Shown in pieces: positions 1-6,000 of a DNA stretch of 14,152 nt. The stretch is from Candidatus Micrarchaeota archaeon. GTDB lineage: Archaea > Micrarchaeota > Micrarchaeia > Anstonellales > Anstonellaceae. The position numbers were made by a program. The DNA lies in NCBI GenBank assembly GCA_013331805.1, contig DUFS01000030.1, positions 1 through 14,152 on the forward strand, read 5' to 3'. Numbering within the stretch: position 1 is the first letter of the stretch; each line of letters begins with the position of its first letter.

Positions 1-3000
1 ATCAGCTCAACCGGAACAAACTACCAGAATTATACCTACAACTACGAGCTGATGGCTCCGACTTCGCCTGGCGCTGCGACCACCGAGGTCTATTACTTCT
101 ACGCAGAGTTCAATTAGGCATTTTTTTTCCTCTTTTTGTTTTTCCTTTTCCCTAATTTATGTGCACCTGTTTATTATTCTGGCGCGAGCCCACTAATGCC
201 ATGAGGGTGCTGGTGTTCGGGAACCCCGTTGCTGAAAGGGACTCCTCAGCTGTGAAAATTGCCGATATGCTGGAGGGGAAACTCGCGGGCATTGAATTTG
301 TCCGTTTCGATACCGCAGAGGATTTGGAAAAAGAAGGGAGCGAAGTTGCGATAATGGATGCGGTAGCGGGCCTGCGCTCCCCCCGGCTGATTTCCCTTGA
401 GGAATTGGAGCTTCCGGAAAAGCCCCTAACGCTTCACGGCTTTGACCTCATGTGGAACCTGCTCCTGCTGAAAAAGCTTGGTAAAATAAAAAAGGCGGTT
501 ATAATCGGGGTGCCTGCCTCAAGGCCTGTTAAGGAAAGCCTTCCGAAAGTGAGGAGACTGCTTGAGAAGCTTGAGGTATAGAAAATTAGTGAAGCGGTTC
601 TCACATAATTTTTTCGAATTCTCCCTTGTCTATGCCGCAGTCCTTCAGGATCCTGTTGAGAAGTCCTGCGCGTATTTCCTTCAGCGGGATGGTGACGCAT
701 ATGCTTCCCCTGTTGAGCGTCACGTGGCTGCCTTTCTGACGCAGCGCGGCAAAGCCGAACCTGTTGCAAAGAATTCTCATCAGCTTTTCGCCGCTTATTG
801 CGCTGAGCTTGCCCATGGCAAACCCACCCGGAATTTCGCTTTCGCAGAAAGAGATTTGACCGCATTTGAGCGCAGGGCGGATAGGTGCAGGTCCAAAGCC
901 TCTATGAAGTCCTTCTTCGCTTCTGTGATGGTGCTTCCCACCGCGTAGACGCCGAGCGCTGAGCAGGCTATTGCGTAGCTTCCGTCCTTCTCGTTGATGA
1001 CATCCACTTCGATTTCCCTTATGAGGGCCTTTTTCGCCATGCTTTTATTTTGTATTGGCAGCTTTTAATTGTTTACCTGTCACGTTTGTTTCGCTAACGC
1101 TTTCCCTCAACCGAAAAGGTCCAGGGATTGGCTGGCAGGCGGACTGCCTTTTTCGTCTCCCTGACCTTGAGCTTGAGGAAGTGGGTGGCGCAGCTCATGC
1201 AGGGGTCGTACGCCCGGACGAGCTTTTCCACTTCCATGGAGATCTCGTCCTTCTCCTTCCCTGCGTCGAAATTGTCCTGCACCACCTGCGCGATGTCCTT
1301 TTCAATGTTTATGAAGTTCTGCGCGGTCGGTATGACGAGGTTGATGTAGTCCACCATCCCCTGCTCGTTCACCTTGATGGCGTAGAAGAGCGTGCCGCGC
1401 GGCGCTTCGGTCACCCCGATTCCGCTTCCCGCCCTTATGGGCGGGGTCTTGTACTGCTCCATCTTGAAGTCAAACCCTTCCAGCCTCTCGATCGCGTGGT
1501 CAATGCAGTGCACGATCTCGATTGCCTGCGCAAGGTTGTTCATGTACATGTTGCTCGAGGGGAAAAGCGAAAGCGTTCCCGCAAGGTCGCGCCGCGTGTC
1601 CTTGTGCAGCGAGCCCTTGTTCAGGTTCATCCTGGCCAACGAGCCCACCATGTACTCCTTGCCCTCGAACTCAAAGCCCGTTGCCTGCGAGTAGGGCACC
1701 ACCACGCGGTCCAGATGGTCCCAGAAGTTACCGCGCGGGATGCAGTAGCCTTCTGACGAGCAAAGCTCCCCTCCTGTGAATTCGTAAGCAGGGTTTTTCA
1801 GCGCAATGAAGTGCGTCTTCCTTGAAAACGAGGGCATCCTGTCCCTGAAAAGCTCCACGAACTCGATCGCATGCTCGCGCGCGTGCGAAAGCGTGTGCGC
1901 CATTTCGCGCGCCTGCTCGTTGGTCAGGACCTTCGTGAATCCGCCCACATTGGGGTAGGGAGCATGCACGCTTCGCCCTGCCACCAGCTTGGAAAGCTCG
2001 TTGCCCGCGCTTTTCACCTCGAGCGCCTTTTCTATGAGCGACTTGTCTCGGTCGGCAAGCTCAAGGACTGAATCGGCGTTCATTATGTCGGGCAGGGAGA
2101 ATATGTAGAGGTGCATGGCGTGGTCCCGCACCATCAGGCCGTCGTTGGTAAGGTGGCGCAGCGCCATGGTCTGCTCGCTTGGGACCACGCCCATCGCATT
2201 TTCCACTGCCTCGATGCAGGACTGCAGGTGGGCAATCGAGCAGGTGCCGCATATGCGCGAAACCAGTTGTGCCACGTTGAGCGCGGGCTTGCCGCGGACG
2301 CCCTGCGTGAAGAAGCGCTTGGATTCGGAAATTTTAAGGTGCGCGTATTGCACCTTGCCCTCCTTTACCCTGACCTCAAGGTCGGTGTGCCCTTCGATTT
2401 TCGAAAGGTGCCTGATGTCAATGTCGAATTCGCCTTCCTTGTGCATGAATATACCACCAGCTGATCAAACTCACTTCACTTCGAACTCAGCCAACAGCTT
2501 GGATAGCGTGTCCAGGAATATTTTCTCATCCATGGGGCAGCCCGGAACCTGGTAGTCCACCTTGACTATGTCCTTTATGGGGTGCACCTTTTCCAGATGC
2601 CCGAACCTTTCCACTATGAGCATGATTTCGCGCCTGGTGGAGTCGTCGAAGGTGTTCCTCTGCGCCGAGGGAAGGCCTGTGCAGGCGCAGGAGCCGATTG
2701 CCACCAGCCTCTTGGACTTCTCCCGGATCATCTTCAGCTCCTCCTCGTCCTCCTTGGTGGCTATCGCCCCCTCCACGAAAGTCACATCCGACCCGTCAAA
2801 GCTGTTGCCCTTGTTCTTGAGCAGCCTGCAGTAGCGGAAGTCGAGCTTCTCCTTCCATTCGAAGAAATGCTCGTTCAATAGCTCCACGAACAATATGGAG
2901 GAGTCCTCGCAGCAGGCAAATGTGACCCAGGAAACGGCAAGCTTCTTCCCCATGAAAATATCCCTCGGGAGATTTTCAGACATTTTCCTCGAGGAAAATG

Positions 3001-6000
3001 CTGATACCCAAAGCGTCGCAGATTAATCTTTTAAACCAAAACGTGCCATTTGTGGTCATGATTGCATGAGACGCCCTTCCATCTGCATGAGGAGGACGGC
3101 CAAACAGGAAAATTAGGGGGATTGGCATGCGATACATGGGGCTGGACGCGCACAGGGGGTTTTCATAGATGGAAAACGGCAAAGGGGCCGCACTGGCATA
3201 TCTTACGGCGATAGTGAGCGGGATTTCGGTTTTCGCAAACAGCTTTGGCGTGCTAACTATTGACCCGACTGCGTACACGTTCCTGAAGAACGCGCTTGTG
3301 GCGGGGATTCTCGCTGCGATTTGCGTTTCATTGGGAAGCTTCCGCGAGTTCTTGCAGCTCAACAGGAAGCAGCTCCTGCAGCTTTCTTTCGTGGGCGTAA
3401 TCGGCGGAGGGGTTGCATTCGCCCTCTTCTTCTCGGGCCTTGCGCTCACCACAGGCTCAATGGGCTCGTTTGCCTACAGGCTGCTTTTCCTGTTTGCCGC
3501 AGTGATTGCGGTCGGCGCTCTCAAGGAAAAAATGAGCTGGAACGCAGCGCTCGGCGCAATTGCGATCCTTGCGGGCAACTTCATCCTGCTTGGCGATGCG
3601 GCGCTTTCAGCCTCCGAGGGGGTTCTTCTCATACTCGCGGCAACCATTCTTTGGGCAGCGGAATACGCGGTTTCTAAAAAGGCGCTTGAGTCGCTCTCGC
3701 CAACTACGGTGGCTGGCGCAAGGATGGGGATTGGCTCGCTCGTTCTGTTGGGAATTCTCCTTTACACAGGTAAAATTTCCTCGCTTTCGCAGATTGCGCC
3801 TGATTCCATCGCTTGGATAGCAATTGCAACCGGCTTCCTAACAGTTTTCGTGACCCTCTGGTATTCCGCCCTGAAGCACACGTCGCTCATCTCAGCAACA
3901 GCCGCACTCACGCTCGGGGGGCCGATTTCGGCACTGCTTTCCTTAGCGTTCGCAGGAAAGGCGCTTGTTCCAGAGGCTGCCGCAGGACTTCTGCTCGCTT
4001 CAATCGGCGCAATTGCCGTGCTGGGCTTTACTGAAACTCTTGCCGCATTTGCCTGGGCAAAGGAAAGGGCGTTTGGCCTGAGGCTGTAGGAAAAATATTG
4101 CCCCCTCAGCCAACGGTCCGTGATTATTATGGAAGGAGTGGAACTTGCTGCCCGCTTTGCCCTTGCTCCGAACTCCCTTTCATACTGCGGCACTCCTGCT
4201 TTTCGCGGCGCATTCTCTGATTTCCTTGATTTGAAAACGGCTGCGGCAGCAGGTGCGCTTGAGTCCTCGCTGAAAAAATTCACAGCCCATTATGCCTATC
4301 TCTGCCTGATCGCAGAGGCGAGCGGGAAAAGCCCGTTTGACAGGGAGGTCGCCGAAGCTTTCTGGCTGGGCAACGGCCTGCTTTGGGAAGTGAAAAAAAA
4401 AGAGCTTGCCAGCCTGATTTCCGATGAATTCTGCGGAACCGGCATGCTTTCCCATGGGCGCGCAATGAAACTGGCGGACGAATTGCCGGACGGGTTCCTG
4501 CCGCACCACTCCTTTCATGTGCTTTACCTGCACACCATTTCTGGCGCAATCGAGCCGAGCTTGAGAAACGCGGATTTGTGCAGGGTATCCTGGGGCAGGG
4601 TTATTGGGGTTGACGGGAACATTGTTGCAGTAAAGTCGCAAAAGCTCATCAGGGTGAACGGCAAATTGGCGCTTGTTGAGCAAAAAAGGAAGTGGAAGGC
4701 ATCCTGCGCAGGAATCCGGCTGCTTGAAGGCGCACGGCGCGGGGACTTCGTTGCGTCGCACTGGGGCTTTGCGGTCATGAAGCTTTCCCAAGCTCAGGCT
4801 GCAAGGCTGGAAAAATTCACCCTGCAGAACCTGAAGGCGGCAAACAGGCTCTAACATTTATTTTGATTGCCTTCGAAATGGCACTTGCATGGGATGGGGG
4901 CTCCTGATTGCACTATTCATTTCCTTCCTGGCGTTCTACTTCCTGTTCCGCATGTTTCGCCGAATCATGCCCCTTGTCCTGCACGGGATTCTCGGCATGG
5001 CTGTATTCTGGGCTTTGCGCGAGACGAGAATACTGGTTGTGCCCATTGACATTGTGACCTTCCTCATCGCGGCTTTCGGCGGAATCCTTGGAGTGATTGT
5101 GGTAATCCTTCTTGCCTTTCTTGGAATACCTCTCTAGACAGCCCTGGATCTTATCCCGAACTATTCTTCAGCACCTTGGGAAGGAGTTCCTCAATTTCCT
5201 GCTGGCCAGAAAGCTTGTAATTCCCAAAAAAAAGCATGGGCACCACCATGCTGTTTTTGAATAAGCCCTTTTCTGCAATAGTTCTTTCGAAGAATGCAAA
5301 GCCCTCGGGTGAAAGAACGTTGACCTTGTGCCATTCTGTGGAATTGGCGTACTCCCGTTCCAAGGACTCCGCCTGTGCCTTTACATTTGCCGAATACGGG
5401 CAGAGGGGCGAATAGAAGTAATACACCTGGGAAAGCTCGGGCTTTTTTGCGTCAAAAAGGTCAGCCAGGATGGCTTCGGTTTCGTTGATAGATATTTTCC
5501 TTTGGGGCTCGGAGACCAATGTGACGTCGTCCGCCCTTTTAGTGTTCGGCTTTGCGGTTATTGTGGACAGGGCATTGCTGCCGTTGAAAATCGAATTTTT
5601 TGGAATAGAAAGCGAAAATACCTCTGCCTTGGGCATCGTTTTTGCCCCCATTGGAGGTTGGGGAGGATCTGGCGGAAGGGGAATGGGGGCTGCCTCGTTC
5701 CTGAAAGACGCAGTGCAGCCAAAGCTACCAATCAGGAACATGCCCAGAACCGCAATTGCCAATTCCTGGTTTTTCATACCCAAAAAATGCTGACCAAGGT
5801 TAATAATGCTCACTAATGCATTCTCATTGGTGAATTGCATGGCGAAAAAAAAGAGGTTTGTTTACGTTTGCGAGGGCTCCTGCGGGGCGATTGTTTCCCC
5901 CAGGCGCTACAAGGCGGGCTTGAAAAAATGCGGGGCTGAAAGCTGCGGCATGCATAACAGGGCATTCAGGAAAAAGCAGGTCATTGACTGATGCCAAGAA

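What a model noticed while it worked through the whole genome (the two positions that open the first line are those of the whole stretch)
1094..4854. [NiFe] hydrogenase without any Hyp maturase, linked to DUF6390, here shown to be a HypC-domain fusion
The genome encodes a two-subunit group-3-type [NiFe] hydrogenase (g00633 large subunit with intact RICGTC and DPCMSC nickel motifs, g00634 small subunit) but no HypA-F and no maturation protease, and HypD and HypF are missing from 175 of 176 genomes of the order although at least 67 carry the large subunit; two genes away lies g00636 (DUF6390), whose C-terminal half models as HypC and keeps HypC's two essential residues. I read DUF6390 as the core of a non-canonical, HypD/HypF-independent way to load the hydrogenase active site, its helical N-domain (invariant Cys20, His126, His127) standing in for the HypD scaffold. 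New: a first function for DUF6390 (about 3,700 genomes) and a [NiFe] hydrog [...]
Evidence so far: g00633: 32.5% id to P. furiosus sulfhydrogenase I alpha over 428 aa, E 9e-65; CxxC pairs at 66 and 416. The small subunit has only 160 aa (its Swiss-Prot matches 216-308 aa) and no beta/gamma diaphorase subunit genes flank the pair, so the enzyme is a minimal heterodimer. No Pfam row for HypA/B(cobW)/C/D/E/F or HycI in this genome; two NikR genes present. Six-frame HMM searches of 176 genomes of the order: HypD 1 of 176, zf-HYPF 1 of 176 (the same genome, G217, which has a hypCDF cluster), controls ring in 4 of 14 as expected; the maturation protease HycI 11 of 176, 0 of 42 in the own family. NiFeSe_Hases in at least 67 of 175 genomes of the order, 10 of 22 of the genus; DUF6390 in 51 of 175 [...]
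(Added by a program. Inside this text positions count along the whole contig: contig position 1 is position 1 of the stretch shown here. "Call 12" and the like, gene names such as g00115 and contig names such as C1 are that model's own, and its searches are not shown. The text may have been shortened before it was handed on; [...] marks where a part breaks off. The agent that wrote the report below was given it as the finding of a first reader that could run no searches.)

Follow-up and report, generated by a model that had tools for sequence, protein, structure and literature searches.

The report
Hydrogenase with HypC-like DUF6390 helper
A tiny groundwater archaeon keeps an intact nickel-iron hydrogenase but none of the usual assembly genes, and beside it carries a membrane permease and an unstudied protein whose rear half is a copy of the iron chaperone HypC, which points to an undescribed way of building this enzyme.

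Summary
The genes are real. The window holds a group-3b-type [NiFe] hydrogenase (large 1094-2446, small 2471-2983, minus strand). Facing it are an EamA permease (3169-4089) and DUF6390 (4129-4854).

- **HypC likeness:** the C-terminal half of DUF6390 is homologous to HypC, and its Cys151 and His211 sit on HypC's Cys2 and His51.
- **Missing maturases:** I found no HypA, B, D, E, F or stand-alone HypC in this 91.5%-complete genome. HypD occurs in 1 of 176 genomes of the order.
- **Correction:** a maturation protease does exist. ORF 159-581 is a divergent HycI/HybD-like endopeptidase, found in 67 of 176 genomes, listed beside the large-subunit gene.
- **Link to hydrogenase:** DUF6390 lies by the hydrogenase in 46 of 53 genomes of the order that have both. 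It also sits in hydrogenase clusters of CPR bacteria, Chloroflexota, Mycobacterium and Sulfobacillus.
- **For a HypD/E/F-free route:** 44 of 47 DUF6390 genomes lack HypD.
- **Against simple replacement:** DUF6390 coexists with hypFCDE in Mycobacterium and Sulfobacillus plasmids, and it is fused to DNA-binding domains in some proteins.

DUF6390 is a credible new hydrogenase maturation factor. That it replaces the HypD scaffold is not shown. Earlier notes of this scan made the same link on other DNA. My searches found no paper naming the family.

The parts
159..581 (+). Divergent hydrogenase maturation endopeptidase-like gene (HycI/HybD type). It converges on the large-subunit gene. The likely true start is the Met at about 207 (MRVLVFGNP...).
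   Evidence: An HMM of 15 neighbour proteins from DPANN/CPR loci hits only this ORF in the own genome, E 2e-36. GN, D28, D67, H93 and D96 are invariant. The profile's top PDB match is a hydrogenase maturation endopeptidase (5ija, E 0.044), with HybD 1cfz/2kml at E 0.75-0.93. 11 of 16 members match Pfam HycI at E<=1 (best 5.8e-5), but this member itself gives no match. The family occurs in 67 of 176 genomes of the order, in most listed cases just beside the large subunit.
1094..2446 (-). [NiFe] hydrogenase large subunit, group-3b-like, 450 aa.
   Evidence: Pfam NiFeSe_Hases E 6.4e-28. L1 motif RICGTCSIAH and L2 motif DPCMSCATH, then a 28-residue tail. PDB sulfhydrogenase I alpha E 5e-64. NCBIfam HydA 233 bits, below the equivalog cut-off of 880. 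All four Cys are invariant in 28 relatives.
2471..2983 (-). Truncated small subunit (160-170 aa) with the proximal-cluster domain only.
   Evidence: Pfam Oxidored_q6 E 2.1e-21, residues 31-163. Cysteines at FACCEDS, GSCAC and GCP. NCBIfam HydD match covers 4-155 of 261 profile positions.
3169..4089 (+). EamA/DMT permease, first gene of the EamA-DUF6390 pair.
   Evidence: Pfam EamA E 1.7e-28, two repeats. It sits directly upstream of DUF6390 in 27 of 80 outside loci and in the loci of the order that I annotated. It is fused to DUF6390 in a 563-aa Kerfeldbacteria protein.
4129..4572 (+). DUF6390 N-domain (residues 1-148). All-helical, with conserved Cys20, His126/127/130 and the W79-x-G-N motif.
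   Evidence: AF2 pLDDT 97.8 for the whole protein and 90.7 for the domain alone. No solved fold matches clearly (best Z 4.1).
4573..4854 (+). DUF6390 C-domain (residues 149-241). A HypC-homologous OB fold plus C-terminal helix, with Cys151 and His211-Trp212.
   Evidence: hhalign against 12 HypC sequences: probability 93.9%, E 1.6e-7. VIA-align to 2z1c_A: Z 5.8, rmsd 2.0 A, 71/71 residues. Foldseek's best PDB hits are HypC chains. Pfam HupF_HypC 20.2 bits, below cut-off.

Best explanation
**What is there (shown).** The window encodes a minimal cytoplasmic group-3b-type [NiFe] hydrogenase: a large subunit and a one-cluster small subunit. With it come a divergent C-terminal maturation endopeptidase and, transcribed divergently, an EamA permease followed by DUF6390. 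DUF6390 is a HypC-derived hydrogenase maturation accessory protein. Its C-domain is a HypC OB fold that keeps the Cys and His which in HypC are essential (recalled). Its N-domain is a new helical domain with a conserved Cys/His cluster. In this genome DUF6390 is the only HypC-type domain, and HypA, B, D, E and F are not found.

**How it probably works (inferred).** DUF6390 holds an iron, or iron-ligand, unit at its Cys/His site. It hands that unit to the apo-large subunit through the HypC-like domain. The permease acts with it, either supplying what DUF6390 binds or being gated by it. Nickel is then inserted, and the endopeptidase cuts the 28-residue tail after His422.

**Scope.** DUF6390 marks lineages that mature [NiFe] hydrogenases without HypD/E/F. 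It is not in itself a HypD replacement, because it also works alongside HypCDEF in other bacteria. The source of CN and CO in the HypDEF-less genomes is unknown.
For: **Homology and fold**
- Searches show the HypC likeness. The alignment puts Cys151 on Cys2 and His211 on His51.
- Across 128 representatives at 50% identity, Cys20 is kept in 126, His127 in 128, Cys151 in 126 and His211 in 128.

**Linkage inside the order**
- 53 of 55 DUF6390 genomes have the P0001-type large subunit.
- By my tally of those coordinates, 46 of the 53 have both genes on one contig, 45 of them within 2.7 kb.
- In G009 and G012 the genes form one co-directional run, EamA-DUF6390-small-large, with overlapping ends.
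- The two 'DUF6390-only' genomes (G047, G072) have EamA-DUF6390 as the last genes of a group-4 membrane hydrogenase operon. Its large subunit keeps CGIC and DPCISC.

**Linkage outside the order**
- 35 of 80 loci have a large subunit within the flank, of several hydrogenase classes, all with intact L1/L2 motifs.
- Canonical HypC sits beside DUF6390 in 11 loci, mostly directly upstream. HypA, HypB and a Nik/Opp-type ABC transporter are nearby in Chloroflexota.
- NCBI annotates DUF6390 directly after hypD in a Mycobacterium plasmid.

**HypDEF-less pattern**
- Of 47 DUF6390 genomes that I chose for taxonomic spread from 80, HypD is in 3, HypF over cut-off in 2 and HypE over cut-off in 3.
- In a sample of 201 Chloroflexia-class genomes, 98 have a large subunit. 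Of these, 75 have HypD. Of the 23 without HypD, 17 have DUF6390. Only 2 genomes have both.
- In the own genus, G026 has hypFCDE and lacks EamA-DUF6390 at the syntenic site, with a 76% identical large subunit.

**Conservation of the enzyme**
- The endopeptidase-like gene tracks the large subunit (67 against 68 of 176 genomes).
- All active-site Cys are invariant in 28 relatives. This argues for a working enzyme.
Against: - There is no experiment, and no RNA run holds the locus.
- DUF6390 coexists with complete hypFCDE in Mycobacterium intracellulare and Sulfobacillus acidophilus plasmids. It also coexists with HypD in G188, G191, G218, G281 and G417. It is therefore not tied to the loss of HypDEF.
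- Fusions to PadR, GntR and ArsR DNA-binding domains keep the same four residues. They suggest a sensor role in at least some members.
- Four hydrogenase genomes of the order (G025, G027, G090, G167) show neither DUF6390 nor any HypC domain. In G025 the syntenic site is contiguous and lacks the pair.
- Cys151 is internal, whereas in HypC (recalled) the Cys follows the start Met.
- No CN or CO source was found: no BATS radical-SAM protein, no HydG and no HypE/F in the own genome.
- Kin are not independent, so the counts overstate the number of evolutionary events.
- Three unpublished genomes (G213, G319, G359) are among the DUF6390-positive, HypD-negative genomes.
Confidence: 0.6

Rival explanations
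1. DUF6390 alone is the assembly scaffold. Its N-domain replaces HypD, and the whole Fe(CN)2CO unit is built on DUF6390 without HypD, HypE or HypF.
For: - The distribution is complementary to HypD.
- G026 has hypFCDE but no DUF6390.
- In Chloroflexota, DUF6390 follows hypC where hypD usually lies.
- Cys20 could, with Cys151, mimic the Cys pair that holds the iron between HypC and HypD (recalled).
Against: - The N-domain is a 148-residue helical bundle without a [4Fe-4S] motif, and no fold or Pfam match to HypD was found.
- The family coexists with HypD in the same operon, its start overlapping the hypD stop by 4 nt.
- The HTH fusions do not fit a scaffold.
- No enzyme for CN or CO synthesis is at hand.
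Confidence: 0.2
2. DUF6390 is a metal or ligand sensor, not a carrier. It binds nickel, iron or a small ligand at its Cys/His site. It then gates the adjacent transporter or, in HTH fusions, controls transcription. Cofactor assembly in HypDEF-less genomes runs through other, unidentified genes.
For: - It is fused to three unrelated DNA-binding domains (PadR, GntR, ArsR) and to EamA, with the four key residues kept.
- It neighbours two unrelated transporter types: EamA in 27 of 80 loci, and SBP_bac_5 plus permeases of the Nik/Opp type in 14 Chloroflexota loci.
- Cys and His are typical nickel ligands (established knowledge).
Against: - It does not explain why the HypC fold and HypC's two key residues are kept.
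- It does not explain why genomes with DUF6390 lack HypD/E/F.
- Chloroflexota clusters already have HypA and HypB for nickel.
- In roughly 1-Mb genomes no other candidate maturation gene is conserved beside the hydrogenase.
Confidence: 0.15
3. The hydrogenase in HypDEF-less genomes is inactive, decaying, or uses a different metal site, and DUF6390 is unrelated to cofactor building.
For: - No known source of CN or CO exists in the genome.
- DPANN genomes are reduced.
- Four genomes keep the hydrogenase with no HypC-type protein at all.
Against: - The large subunit, small subunit and endopeptidase are co-conserved in 66-68 of 176 genomes. All four metal-binding Cys and 41 columns in all are invariant in 28 relatives down to 30% identity.
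- A 76% identical ortholog co-occurs with canonical hypFCDE in G026. That implies the same active site.
- Large free-living Chloroflexota (up to 7.2 Mb) show the same pattern.
Confidence: 0.05

Closest known systems
HypC / HybG / HupF chaperones (PF01455, TIGR00074; T. kodakarensis HypC 2z1c and 3vyr, E. coli HypC 2ot2)
   Same: Both have an OB fold plus a C-terminal helix (Z 5.8, rmsd 2.0 A, 71/71 residues). Profile-profile homology is E 1.6e-7. A conserved Cys and His sit at the positions of Cys2 and His51. Both occur in hydrogenase gene clusters.
   Different: The HypC-like part is a domain inside a 241-aa protein, so the Cys is internal rather than N-terminal. It carries an extra beta-hairpin. 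It scores below the family cut-offs (20.2 against 28.5 bits; 21.6 against 48). It is preceded by a 148-aa helical Cys/His domain with no known relative. Stand-alone HypC is still present next to it in 11 loci.
HypC-HypD scaffold of canonical [NiFe] maturation (with HypE and HypF)
   Same: It occupies the gene slot after hypC in Chloroflexota. Its distribution is complementary to HypD in the Chloroflexia sample and in the own order. It offers one Cys from each of two domains, as in the HypC-HypD iron site (recalled).
   Different: It has no HypD sequence or fold and no iron-sulfur cluster motif. It coexists with HypD in Mycobacterium and Sulfobacillus operons. Nothing is shown about binding CN or CO.
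CPR 'hyd2' group-3b-related hydrogenase with 'fam002' (Jaffe et al. 2020, BMC Biol, PMC7304191; section 9 read)
   Same: Both have a truncated small subunit (mean 164 aa there, 160-170 aa here) and no beta or gamma subunits. In both, a neighbouring protein family has some members resembling HypC. CPR loci fetched here show the same large-small-EamA-DUF6390 layout.
   Different: That paper does not name DUF6390, does not analyse maturation genes (the word 'maturation' occurs 0 times) and covers CPR bacteria only. I did not test by phylogeny whether the archaeal enzyme falls in hyd2.
HycI / HybD hydrogenase maturation endopeptidases (PF01750; 5ija, 1cfz)
   Same: For ORF 159-581: similar size, a GN...D / ID / H pattern matching the three metal ligands of HybD (ligands recalled), and weak profile matches. 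It lies beside the large subunit, which has a C-terminal tail.
   Different: It is very divergent. The window's own member gives no Pfam match, and the best family member reaches E 5.8e-5.

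Membership tests
DUF6390 (PF19927) | Full-length match over Pfam's gathering score | tested here: met
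   148.7 bits against a cut-off of 25, profile positions 4-239 of 244.
HypC/HybG/HupF (PF01455, TIGR00074) | Score over the curated family cut-off | tested here: not met
   PF01455 20.2 bits against 28.5. TIGR00074 21.6 bits against 48.
HypC/HybG/HupF (PF01455, TIGR00074) | OB-fold barrel followed by a C-terminal helix | tested here: met
   2z1c_A Z 5.8, rmsd 2.0 A, 71/71 residues, 30% identity. 2ot2 Z 4.9. Foldseek's best PDB hits are HypC chains, probability 1.0.
HypC/HybG/HupF (PF01455, TIGR00074) | Cysteine directly after the start Met (free N-terminal Cys2; feature recalled) | tested here: not met
   The aligned Cys is residue 151 of 241, so it is internal. It is conserved in 126 of 128 representatives.
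HypC/HybG/HupF (PF01455, TIGR00074) | Conserved His at the position of His51 (feature recalled) | tested here: met
   His211 aligns with the His of GDYVLVHVGFA and is kept in 128 of 128 representatives.
HypC/HybG/HupF (PF01455, TIGR00074) | Binds the apo-large subunit and HypD | not testable with these tools
   The single complex-prediction job gave no verdict (see Tried and rejected). This needs pull-downs.
HypD (PF01924) | HypD sequence or fold with [4Fe-4S]-binding Cys motifs | tested here: not met
   No PF01924 match in the protein or in the genome. The N-domain is all-helical, has one conserved Cys, and its best PDB Z is 4.1 to unrelated helical proteins.
[NiFe] hydrogenase, group 3b (sulfhydrogenase type) | Large subunit with L1 RxCGxCxxxH and L2 DPCxxCxxH motifs | tested here: met
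   RICGTCSIAH and DPCMSCATH. Both CxxC pairs and the DP of L2 are invariant in 28 relatives; the motif histidines H73 and H422 are kept in at least 90%.
[NiFe] hydrogenase, group 3b (sulfhydrogenase type) | Closest to characterised 3b enzymes and over the equivalog cut-off | tested here: inconclusive
   The best PDB and NCBIfam matches are sulfhydrogenase I/II alpha (E 5e-64; 233 bits), but far below the equivalog cut-offs of 880 and 700. No tree was built.
[NiFe] hydrogenase, group 3b (sulfhydrogenase type) | Heterotetramer with beta and gamma diaphorase subunits and a three-cluster small subunit | tested here: not met
   No beta or gamma genes lie in the window. The small subunit covers only positions 4-155 of the 261-position HydD profile.
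HycI/HybD maturation endopeptidase (PF01750), for ORF 159-581 | Family match and the three metal-ligand positions (Asp/Glu, Asp, His; recalled) | tested here: inconclusive
   The window member has no Pfam match. 11 of 16 family members match HycI at E<=1, best 5.8e-5. The profile's top PDB hit is 5ija, E 0.044. D28, D67 and H93 are invariant in 16 sequences.

The most novel reading that the evidence does not exclude
**The reading.** DUF6390 is the carrier of a salvage or uptake route for the hydrogenase iron centre.
- Where HypCDEF exist (Mycobacterium, Sulfobacillus), DUF6390 takes the Fe(CN)2CO unit, or a precursor, from them.
- Where they are lost (DPANN, CPR, many Chloroflexota), a dedicated importer feeds DUF6390. 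The importer is EamA, sometimes fused to DUF6390, or a Nik/Opp-type ABC system. It would bring in an exogenous iron-carbonyl-cyanide synthon, or free cyanide and CO.
- DUF6390 then loads the large subunit.
- The HTH-DUF6390 fusions would be regulators that sense the same ligand.

**What it explains at once.** The transporter linkage, the sensor fusions, the retained HypC residues, the loss of HypD/E/F, and the retention of the endopeptidase (and, in Chloroflexota clusters, of HypA/HypB).

**A parallel in the same order.** A second HypDEF-free route seems to exist. True HydG plus a HypC-HydE fusion lie beside the same hydrogenase in G121, and none of the 5 such genomes tested has an [FeFe] hydrogenase.
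Probability: 0.15. Interest if true: 0.95.

Novelty: new variant of a known kind. Interest (0 to 1): 0.8.

Why it matters
Textbook [NiFe]-hydrogenase biosynthesis needs HypC, D, E and F to build the Fe(CN)2CO unit. No HypD/E/F-independent route is described in the papers I could search:
- 'DUF6390' gave 0 papers.
- 'EamA + hydrogenase + HypC' gave 0 papers.
- Two further searches on HypD/HypF and CPR or Chloroflexi turned up no such report in their listings.

Here an intact hydrogenase and its endopeptidase are conserved in dozens of archaeal genomes that lack those genes. The same holds in CPR bacteria and in free-living Chloroflexota of 2.7-7.2 Mb. The one shared extra gene is a HypC-derived protein of unknown function.

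If DUF6390, with its transporter, supports maturation, three things follow:
- It gives a first function to a family found in at least 775 clusters at 50% identity.
- It changes how hydrogen metabolism is inferred from genomes, since a 'hydrogenase without hyp genes' would no longer be written off.
- It offers a much smaller gene set for heterologous hydrogenase production.

The family also occurs in culturable bacteria (Sulfobacillus, Mycobacterium), so the question can be tested directly.

Tried and rejected
- **Complex prediction.** Large subunit (alignment A7) with DUF6390 (A2) scored 0.00, so there is no verdict.
- **Expression.** No sequencing run on record as RNA holds window 100-4900. 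All 20 listed holders are DNA runs labelled groundwater or soil metagenome. I did not lay reads.
- **Protein atlas.** A search with the N-domain gave no usable hit.
- **N-domain fold.** Folded alone and searched against 48,161 PDB chains, the best matches were acyl-carrier-type helical proteins at Z 3.6-4.1. I treat these as chance.
- **Radical-SAM route in the own genome.** There is no BATS domain. tblastn with HydG and the HypC-HydE fusion from G121 found nothing.
- **HypF-like pieces.** tblastn with G026's HypF hit two own-genome segments, at HypF positions 204-365 and 13-82, which correspond to the Sua5/YrdC and acylphosphatase domains of that HypF. The TIGR00143 matches in the 47-genome set are short partial ones (positions about 1-87 or 186-349) far below the cut-off. 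I do not count these as HypF.
- **Technical retries.** The search for related loci with the 128-sequence alignment failed because no stretch was conserved enough. I used the 30-sequence alignment A1 instead. A request with 78 loci exceeded the limit of 50, so I searched 47 chosen for taxonomic spread.
- **Four genomes with no HypC-type protein.** I considered that G025, G027, G090 and G167 refute the link. I kept them as counter-evidence but not as decisive. They are 73-96% complete, and in G142 the EamA-DUF6390 pair lies on a different contig from the hydrogenase.
- **Other unannotated neighbours.** The 195-aa ORF after the G167 hydrogenase and the 267-aa ORF beside the G092 hydrogenase did not match my DUF6390 HMM.

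Full report
**1. What is in the window**

Six-frame ORFs and Pfam give the following on the minus strand:
- A [NiFe] hydrogenase large subunit at 1094-2446 (450 aa, NiFeSe_Hases E 6.4e-28).
- A short small subunit at 2471-2983 (Oxidored_q6 only).

On the plus strand lie:
- An EamA permease at 3169-4089.
- 30 bases later, DUF6390 at 4120-4854 (E 2.5e-43).

Homologs are 241 aa long. The real start of DUF6390 is therefore the ATG at 4129, and I number residues from there.

The large subunit has RICGTCSIAH and DPCMSCATH, followed by a 28-residue tail. Its best solved relatives are the group-3b sulfhydrogenase I alpha subunits (E 5e-64). It scores far below NCBI's equivalog cut-offs (233 against 880 bits).

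The rest of the window is housekeeping: MsrB, ProRS, a beta-propeller protein, and A-type ATPase subunits B and D. Close homologs of DUF6390 are labelled Micrarchaeia or Anstonellaceae. The organism is thus a DPANN archaeon with a 1.19-Mb genome, 91.5% complete.

**2. The missing maturases, and one that is not missing**

Searches of the own genome gave:
- HypD: nothing.
- HycI: nothing.
- zf-HYPF: only noise.
- HypE: only AIR-synthase paralogs at 45 bits against a cut-off of 251.6.
- HypA and cobW/HypB: no match over cut-off.
- HypC family: only the DUF6390 gene.

Controls behaved as expected each time. Two NikR genes are present. Over the order, HypD occurs in 1 of 176 genomes. I did not repeat the HypF scan over the order.

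The claim of no protease fails. While clustering the neighbours of DUF6390 in other phyla, I found a family of about 130-150 aa in 15 loci. Evidence that it is a protease:
- Its HMM hits one place in the own genome, window ORF 159-581, E 2e-36.
- The family has invariant GN, Asp28, Asp67 and His93.
- 11 of 16 members match Pfam HycI at E<=1, best 5.8e-5. The window's own copy gives no match.
- The profile's best PDB match is a hydrogenase maturation endopeptidase (5ija, E 0.044), with E. coli HybD further down.
- It occurs in 67 of 176 genomes of the order, essentially the same genomes as the large subunit. In most listed cases the gene lies just beside the large-subunit gene, and in the window it converges on it.

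I read it as a divergent maturation endopeptidase. That fits the C-terminal tail of the large subunit.

**3. DUF6390 is a HypC-domain protein**

- AlphaFold2 with 128 representatives gave pLDDT 97.8 and pTM 0.94. Helices span 3-151, five strands span 154-219, and a helix spans 221-239.
- Foldseek's best PDB hits are HypC chains.
- VIA-align gives T. kodakarensis HypC at Z 5.8, rmsd 2.0 A over all 71 residues, and E. coli HypC at Z 4.9. The next hits are generic OB folds.
- A profile-profile comparison of 22 DUF6390 C-domains with 12 HypC sequences gives probability 93.9% and E 1.6e-7. It aligns LCRVSWGRV with MCLAIPGKL, and GDFVASHWGFAV with GDYVLVHVGFAI, with an extra hairpin in between.
- Cys151 and His211 thus sit at the positions of Cys2 and His51. 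They are kept in 126 and 128 of 128 representatives. Cys20 is kept in 126 and His127 in 128.
- The N-domain folded alone (pLDDT 90.7) matches no solved structure convincingly (best Z 4.1).

**4. Linkage to hydrogenases**

*In the order.* 55 genomes have DUF6390 and 68 have the large subunit. 53 have both, 2 have only DUF6390, and 15 have only the hydrogenase. By my tally of the coordinates, 46 of the 53 have the two genes on one contig, 45 of them within 2.7 kb.

The usual layout is the window's: large and small subunits on one strand, EamA and DUF6390 on the other. Variants are:
- In G009 and G012 the genes run EamA-DUF6390-small-large on one strand with overlapping ends.
- In the two 'DUF6390-only' genomes, EamA-DUF6390 end a group-4 membrane-hydrogenase operon. 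Its large subunit keeps both CxxC motifs.
- A 213-aa ORF after the hydrogenase and protease genes of G165 is a divergent DUF6390. It scores 51.5 bits to my HMM and is below Pfam's cut-off.

*Outside the order.* A scan of species genomes found at least 558 relatives. The 80 best loci come from other DPANN, CPR bacteria, Chloroflexota and Dormibacterota.
- 35 of the 80 loci have a large-subunit gene inside the flank. Many of the loci are cut short by contig ends.
- The enzymes are of several classes (about 430 aa and 550-745 aa), all with intact motifs.
- EamA precedes DUF6390 in 27 loci.
- In Chloroflexota the cluster reads large, small, NifU-Rieske, DUF6084, DUF5947, HypA, HypB, HypC, DUF6390, then a Nik/Opp-type ABC transporter.

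Jaffe et al. 2020 (PMC7304191; section 9 read) described the CPR form as 'hyd2'. It has a 164-aa small subunit and a nearby 'fam002' partly resembling HypC. They did not study maturation.

**5. HypD/E/F are missing wherever I looked, with exceptions**

*Across phyla.* I chose 47 DUF6390 genomes from the 80 loci for taxonomic spread (6 DPANN, 19 CPR or unclassified bacteria, 20 Chloroflexota, 2 others). HypD is present in 3, HypF over cut-off in 2, and HypE over cut-off in 3. The genomes without HypD include Chloroflexota of 2.7-7.2 Mb, some with megabase contigs.

*In the Chloroflexia class.* I searched a sample of 201 genomes at least 80% complete.

| Group | Genomes |
|---|---|
| With a large subunit | 98 |
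| With HypD | 77 |
| With DUF6390 | 22 |
| HypD genomes that also have a large subunit | 75 of 77 |
| Large subunit but no HypD | 23 |
| Of those 23, with DUF6390 | 17 |
| With both HypD and DUF6390 | 2 |
| With DUF6390 but no large-subunit match | 3 |

- Of the 6 genomes with neither HypD nor DUF6390, 4 are weak matches of E 1e-11 to 1e-12.
- In one of the two genomes with both (G417), the two genes lie 2.7 kb apart on one contig.
- Genomes with large-subunit matches of similar strength (E about 1e-232 to 1e-239) occur in both the HypD and the DUF6390 groups.
- Three unpublished genomes (G213, G319, G359) are among the DUF6390-positive, HypD-negative genomes. Without them the counts are 19 with DUF6390 and 14 of 20 HypD-less hydrogenase genomes.

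*In the own genus.* G026 has hypF-C-D-E among housekeeping genes on a 112-kb contig. It lacks EamA-DUF6390 at the syntenic site, and its large subunit is 76% identical to the window's.

**6. What speaks against a simple HypD replacement**

I tested this.
- In a Mycobacterium intracellulare plasmid, NCBI annotates a DUF6390 protein whose start overlaps the stop of hypD by 4 nt. It sits in a cluster with hypF, three hypC-type genes and hypE.
- A Sulfobacillus acidophilus plasmid has hypF-hypC-hypD-hypE-tatA and then the homolog.
- Both proteins keep Cys20, His127, His130, Cys151 and His211.
- No transporter flanks DUF6390 in either record.

Some members are fused to DNA-binding domains: PadR (a cluster of 15 sequences), GntR and ArsR. 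One is fused to EamA. All keep the four key residues. Such fusions are typical of ligand-sensing domains.

Four hydrogenase genomes of the order (G025, G027, G090, G167) show neither DUF6390 nor any HypC domain.

**7. A second HypDEF-free arrangement in the same order**

- In G121 the hydrogenase faces a 412-aa fusion. HypC occupies residues 1-63 (40 bits, over cut-off). It is joined to a HydE-like radical-SAM enzyme (219 bits against a cut-off of 254.6).
- A true HydG follows (574 bits against 312).
- A HypC domain over cut-off occurs in 20 of 176 genomes. One is the canonical HypC of G026. 17 lie at the start of open frames of 424-477 aa, and two frames are cut short.
- Of these 19 fusion-type genomes, 10 have the hydrogenase, and only one (G052) also has DUF6390.
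- None of 5 such genomes tested has an [FeFe]-hydrogenase H-cluster domain.

So 64 of 68 hydrogenase genomes of the order carry some HypC-type domain:

| HypC-type partner | Genomes |
|---|---|
| DUF6390 | 53 |
| Divergent DUF6390 (G165) | 1 |
| HydE fusion only | 9 |
| Canonical HypC (G026) | 1 |

Only in G121 did I verify the domain content of the fusion.

**8. Reading**

*Shown:*
- The gene set and the HypC homology with its conserved residues.
- The tight and repeated linkage of DUF6390 to [NiFe] hydrogenases of several classes.
- The rarity of HypD/E/F in genomes that carry DUF6390.
- The presence of a divergent endopeptidase.

*Inferred:* DUF6390 carries an iron or iron-ligand unit to the large subunit and works with the adjacent transporter.

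*Unknown:* where CN and CO come from.

The boldest reading that fits all observations has DUF6390 receiving the iron unit from HypCDEF where they exist. Where they do not, it would receive it from an importer (EamA or a Nik-type ABC system).

*Searches that found nothing relevant:*
- 'DUF6390' gave 0 papers.
- 'EamA + hydrogenase + HypC' gave 0 papers.
- Searches on Micrarchaeota or Chloroflexi hydrogenase maturation turned up nothing relevant. From those I read passages of Greening et al. 2024 (PMC11216029) and of the T. roseum genome paper (PMC2615216).

Supplements of these papers were not opened. Table S2 of Greening et al. and the family tables of Jaffe et al. could bear on whether fam002 equals DUF6390.

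Earlier notes of this scan reached similar readings on other DNA.

Noticed in passing
L048:8328-10933 (genome G121, same order): A true HydG (TIGR03955, 574 bits, over cut-off) and a HypC-HydE-like radical-SAM fusion lie divergently beside the minimal [NiFe] hydrogenase. HypC domains in frames of 424-477 aa occur in 17 of 176 genomes, plus two cut frames. None of 5 such genomes tested has an [FeFe] hydrogenase domain. This is a candidate for [FeFe]-type maturases feeding a [NiFe] enzyme.
   Followed up: partly
P0210, P0225, P0290/P0231, P0183 (metagenome proteins): DUF6390 is fused to PadR, GntR and ArsR DNA-binding domains, and to the C-terminus of an EamA transporter (Kerfeldbacteria, 563 aa). 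All keep Cys20, His127, Cys151 and His211.
   Followed up: partly
L155:10898-12786 (Mycobacterium intracellulare plasmid NZ_CP012886.2); L156:3565-9747 (Sulfobacillus acidophilus plasmid CP003180.1): DUF6390 sits inside complete hypF-C-D-E operons of cultured bacteria, with no transporter beside it. The mycobacterial cluster adjoins RuBisCO and Calvin-cycle genes.
   Followed up: partly
L072-L133 (HypC genes next to DUF6390 in Chloroflexota and a Woesearchaeote): Most stand-alone HypC proteins that flank DUF6390 lack the His at the His51 position (Tyr, Asn, Ser, Gln or Asp instead). The DUF6390 C-domain always has it.
   Followed up: no
L050:4814-5452 (genome G165): A 213-aa, very divergent DUF6390 (below Pfam's cut-off, 51.5 bits to my HMM) closes an operon small-large-protease-DUF6390. 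That hydrogenase has a longer, 249-aa small subunit. Pfam-based counts of the family are therefore underestimates.
   Followed up: partly
L052 and L053 (genomes G047, G072): A group-4 membrane-bound hydrogenase operon (antiporter subunit, NuoB-like, 30-kDa, large subunit, NuoH-like, ferredoxin) ends with EamA-DUF6390. In G047 a 287-aa ORF with a HycI domain lies upstream.
   Followed up: partly
window 4889-5137 (+), 8953-9552 (-): A BofA-like small membrane protein follows DUF6390, and a ferric-reductase-like membrane protein lies nearby. BofA, ferric-reductase-like and cytochrome-b5 genes recur near the hydrogenase in related genomes (L039, L040, L041, L044, L052).
   Followed up: no
window 5151-5840 (-): A 229-aa ORF with no Pfam match lies between the BofA-like gene and MsrB.
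   Followed up: no
G000:C31:2480-2707 and G000:C24:4582-4779: Two NikR-type nickel regulators are encoded in a genome with no HypA/HypB. I did not look for a recognised nickel transporter.
   Followed up: no
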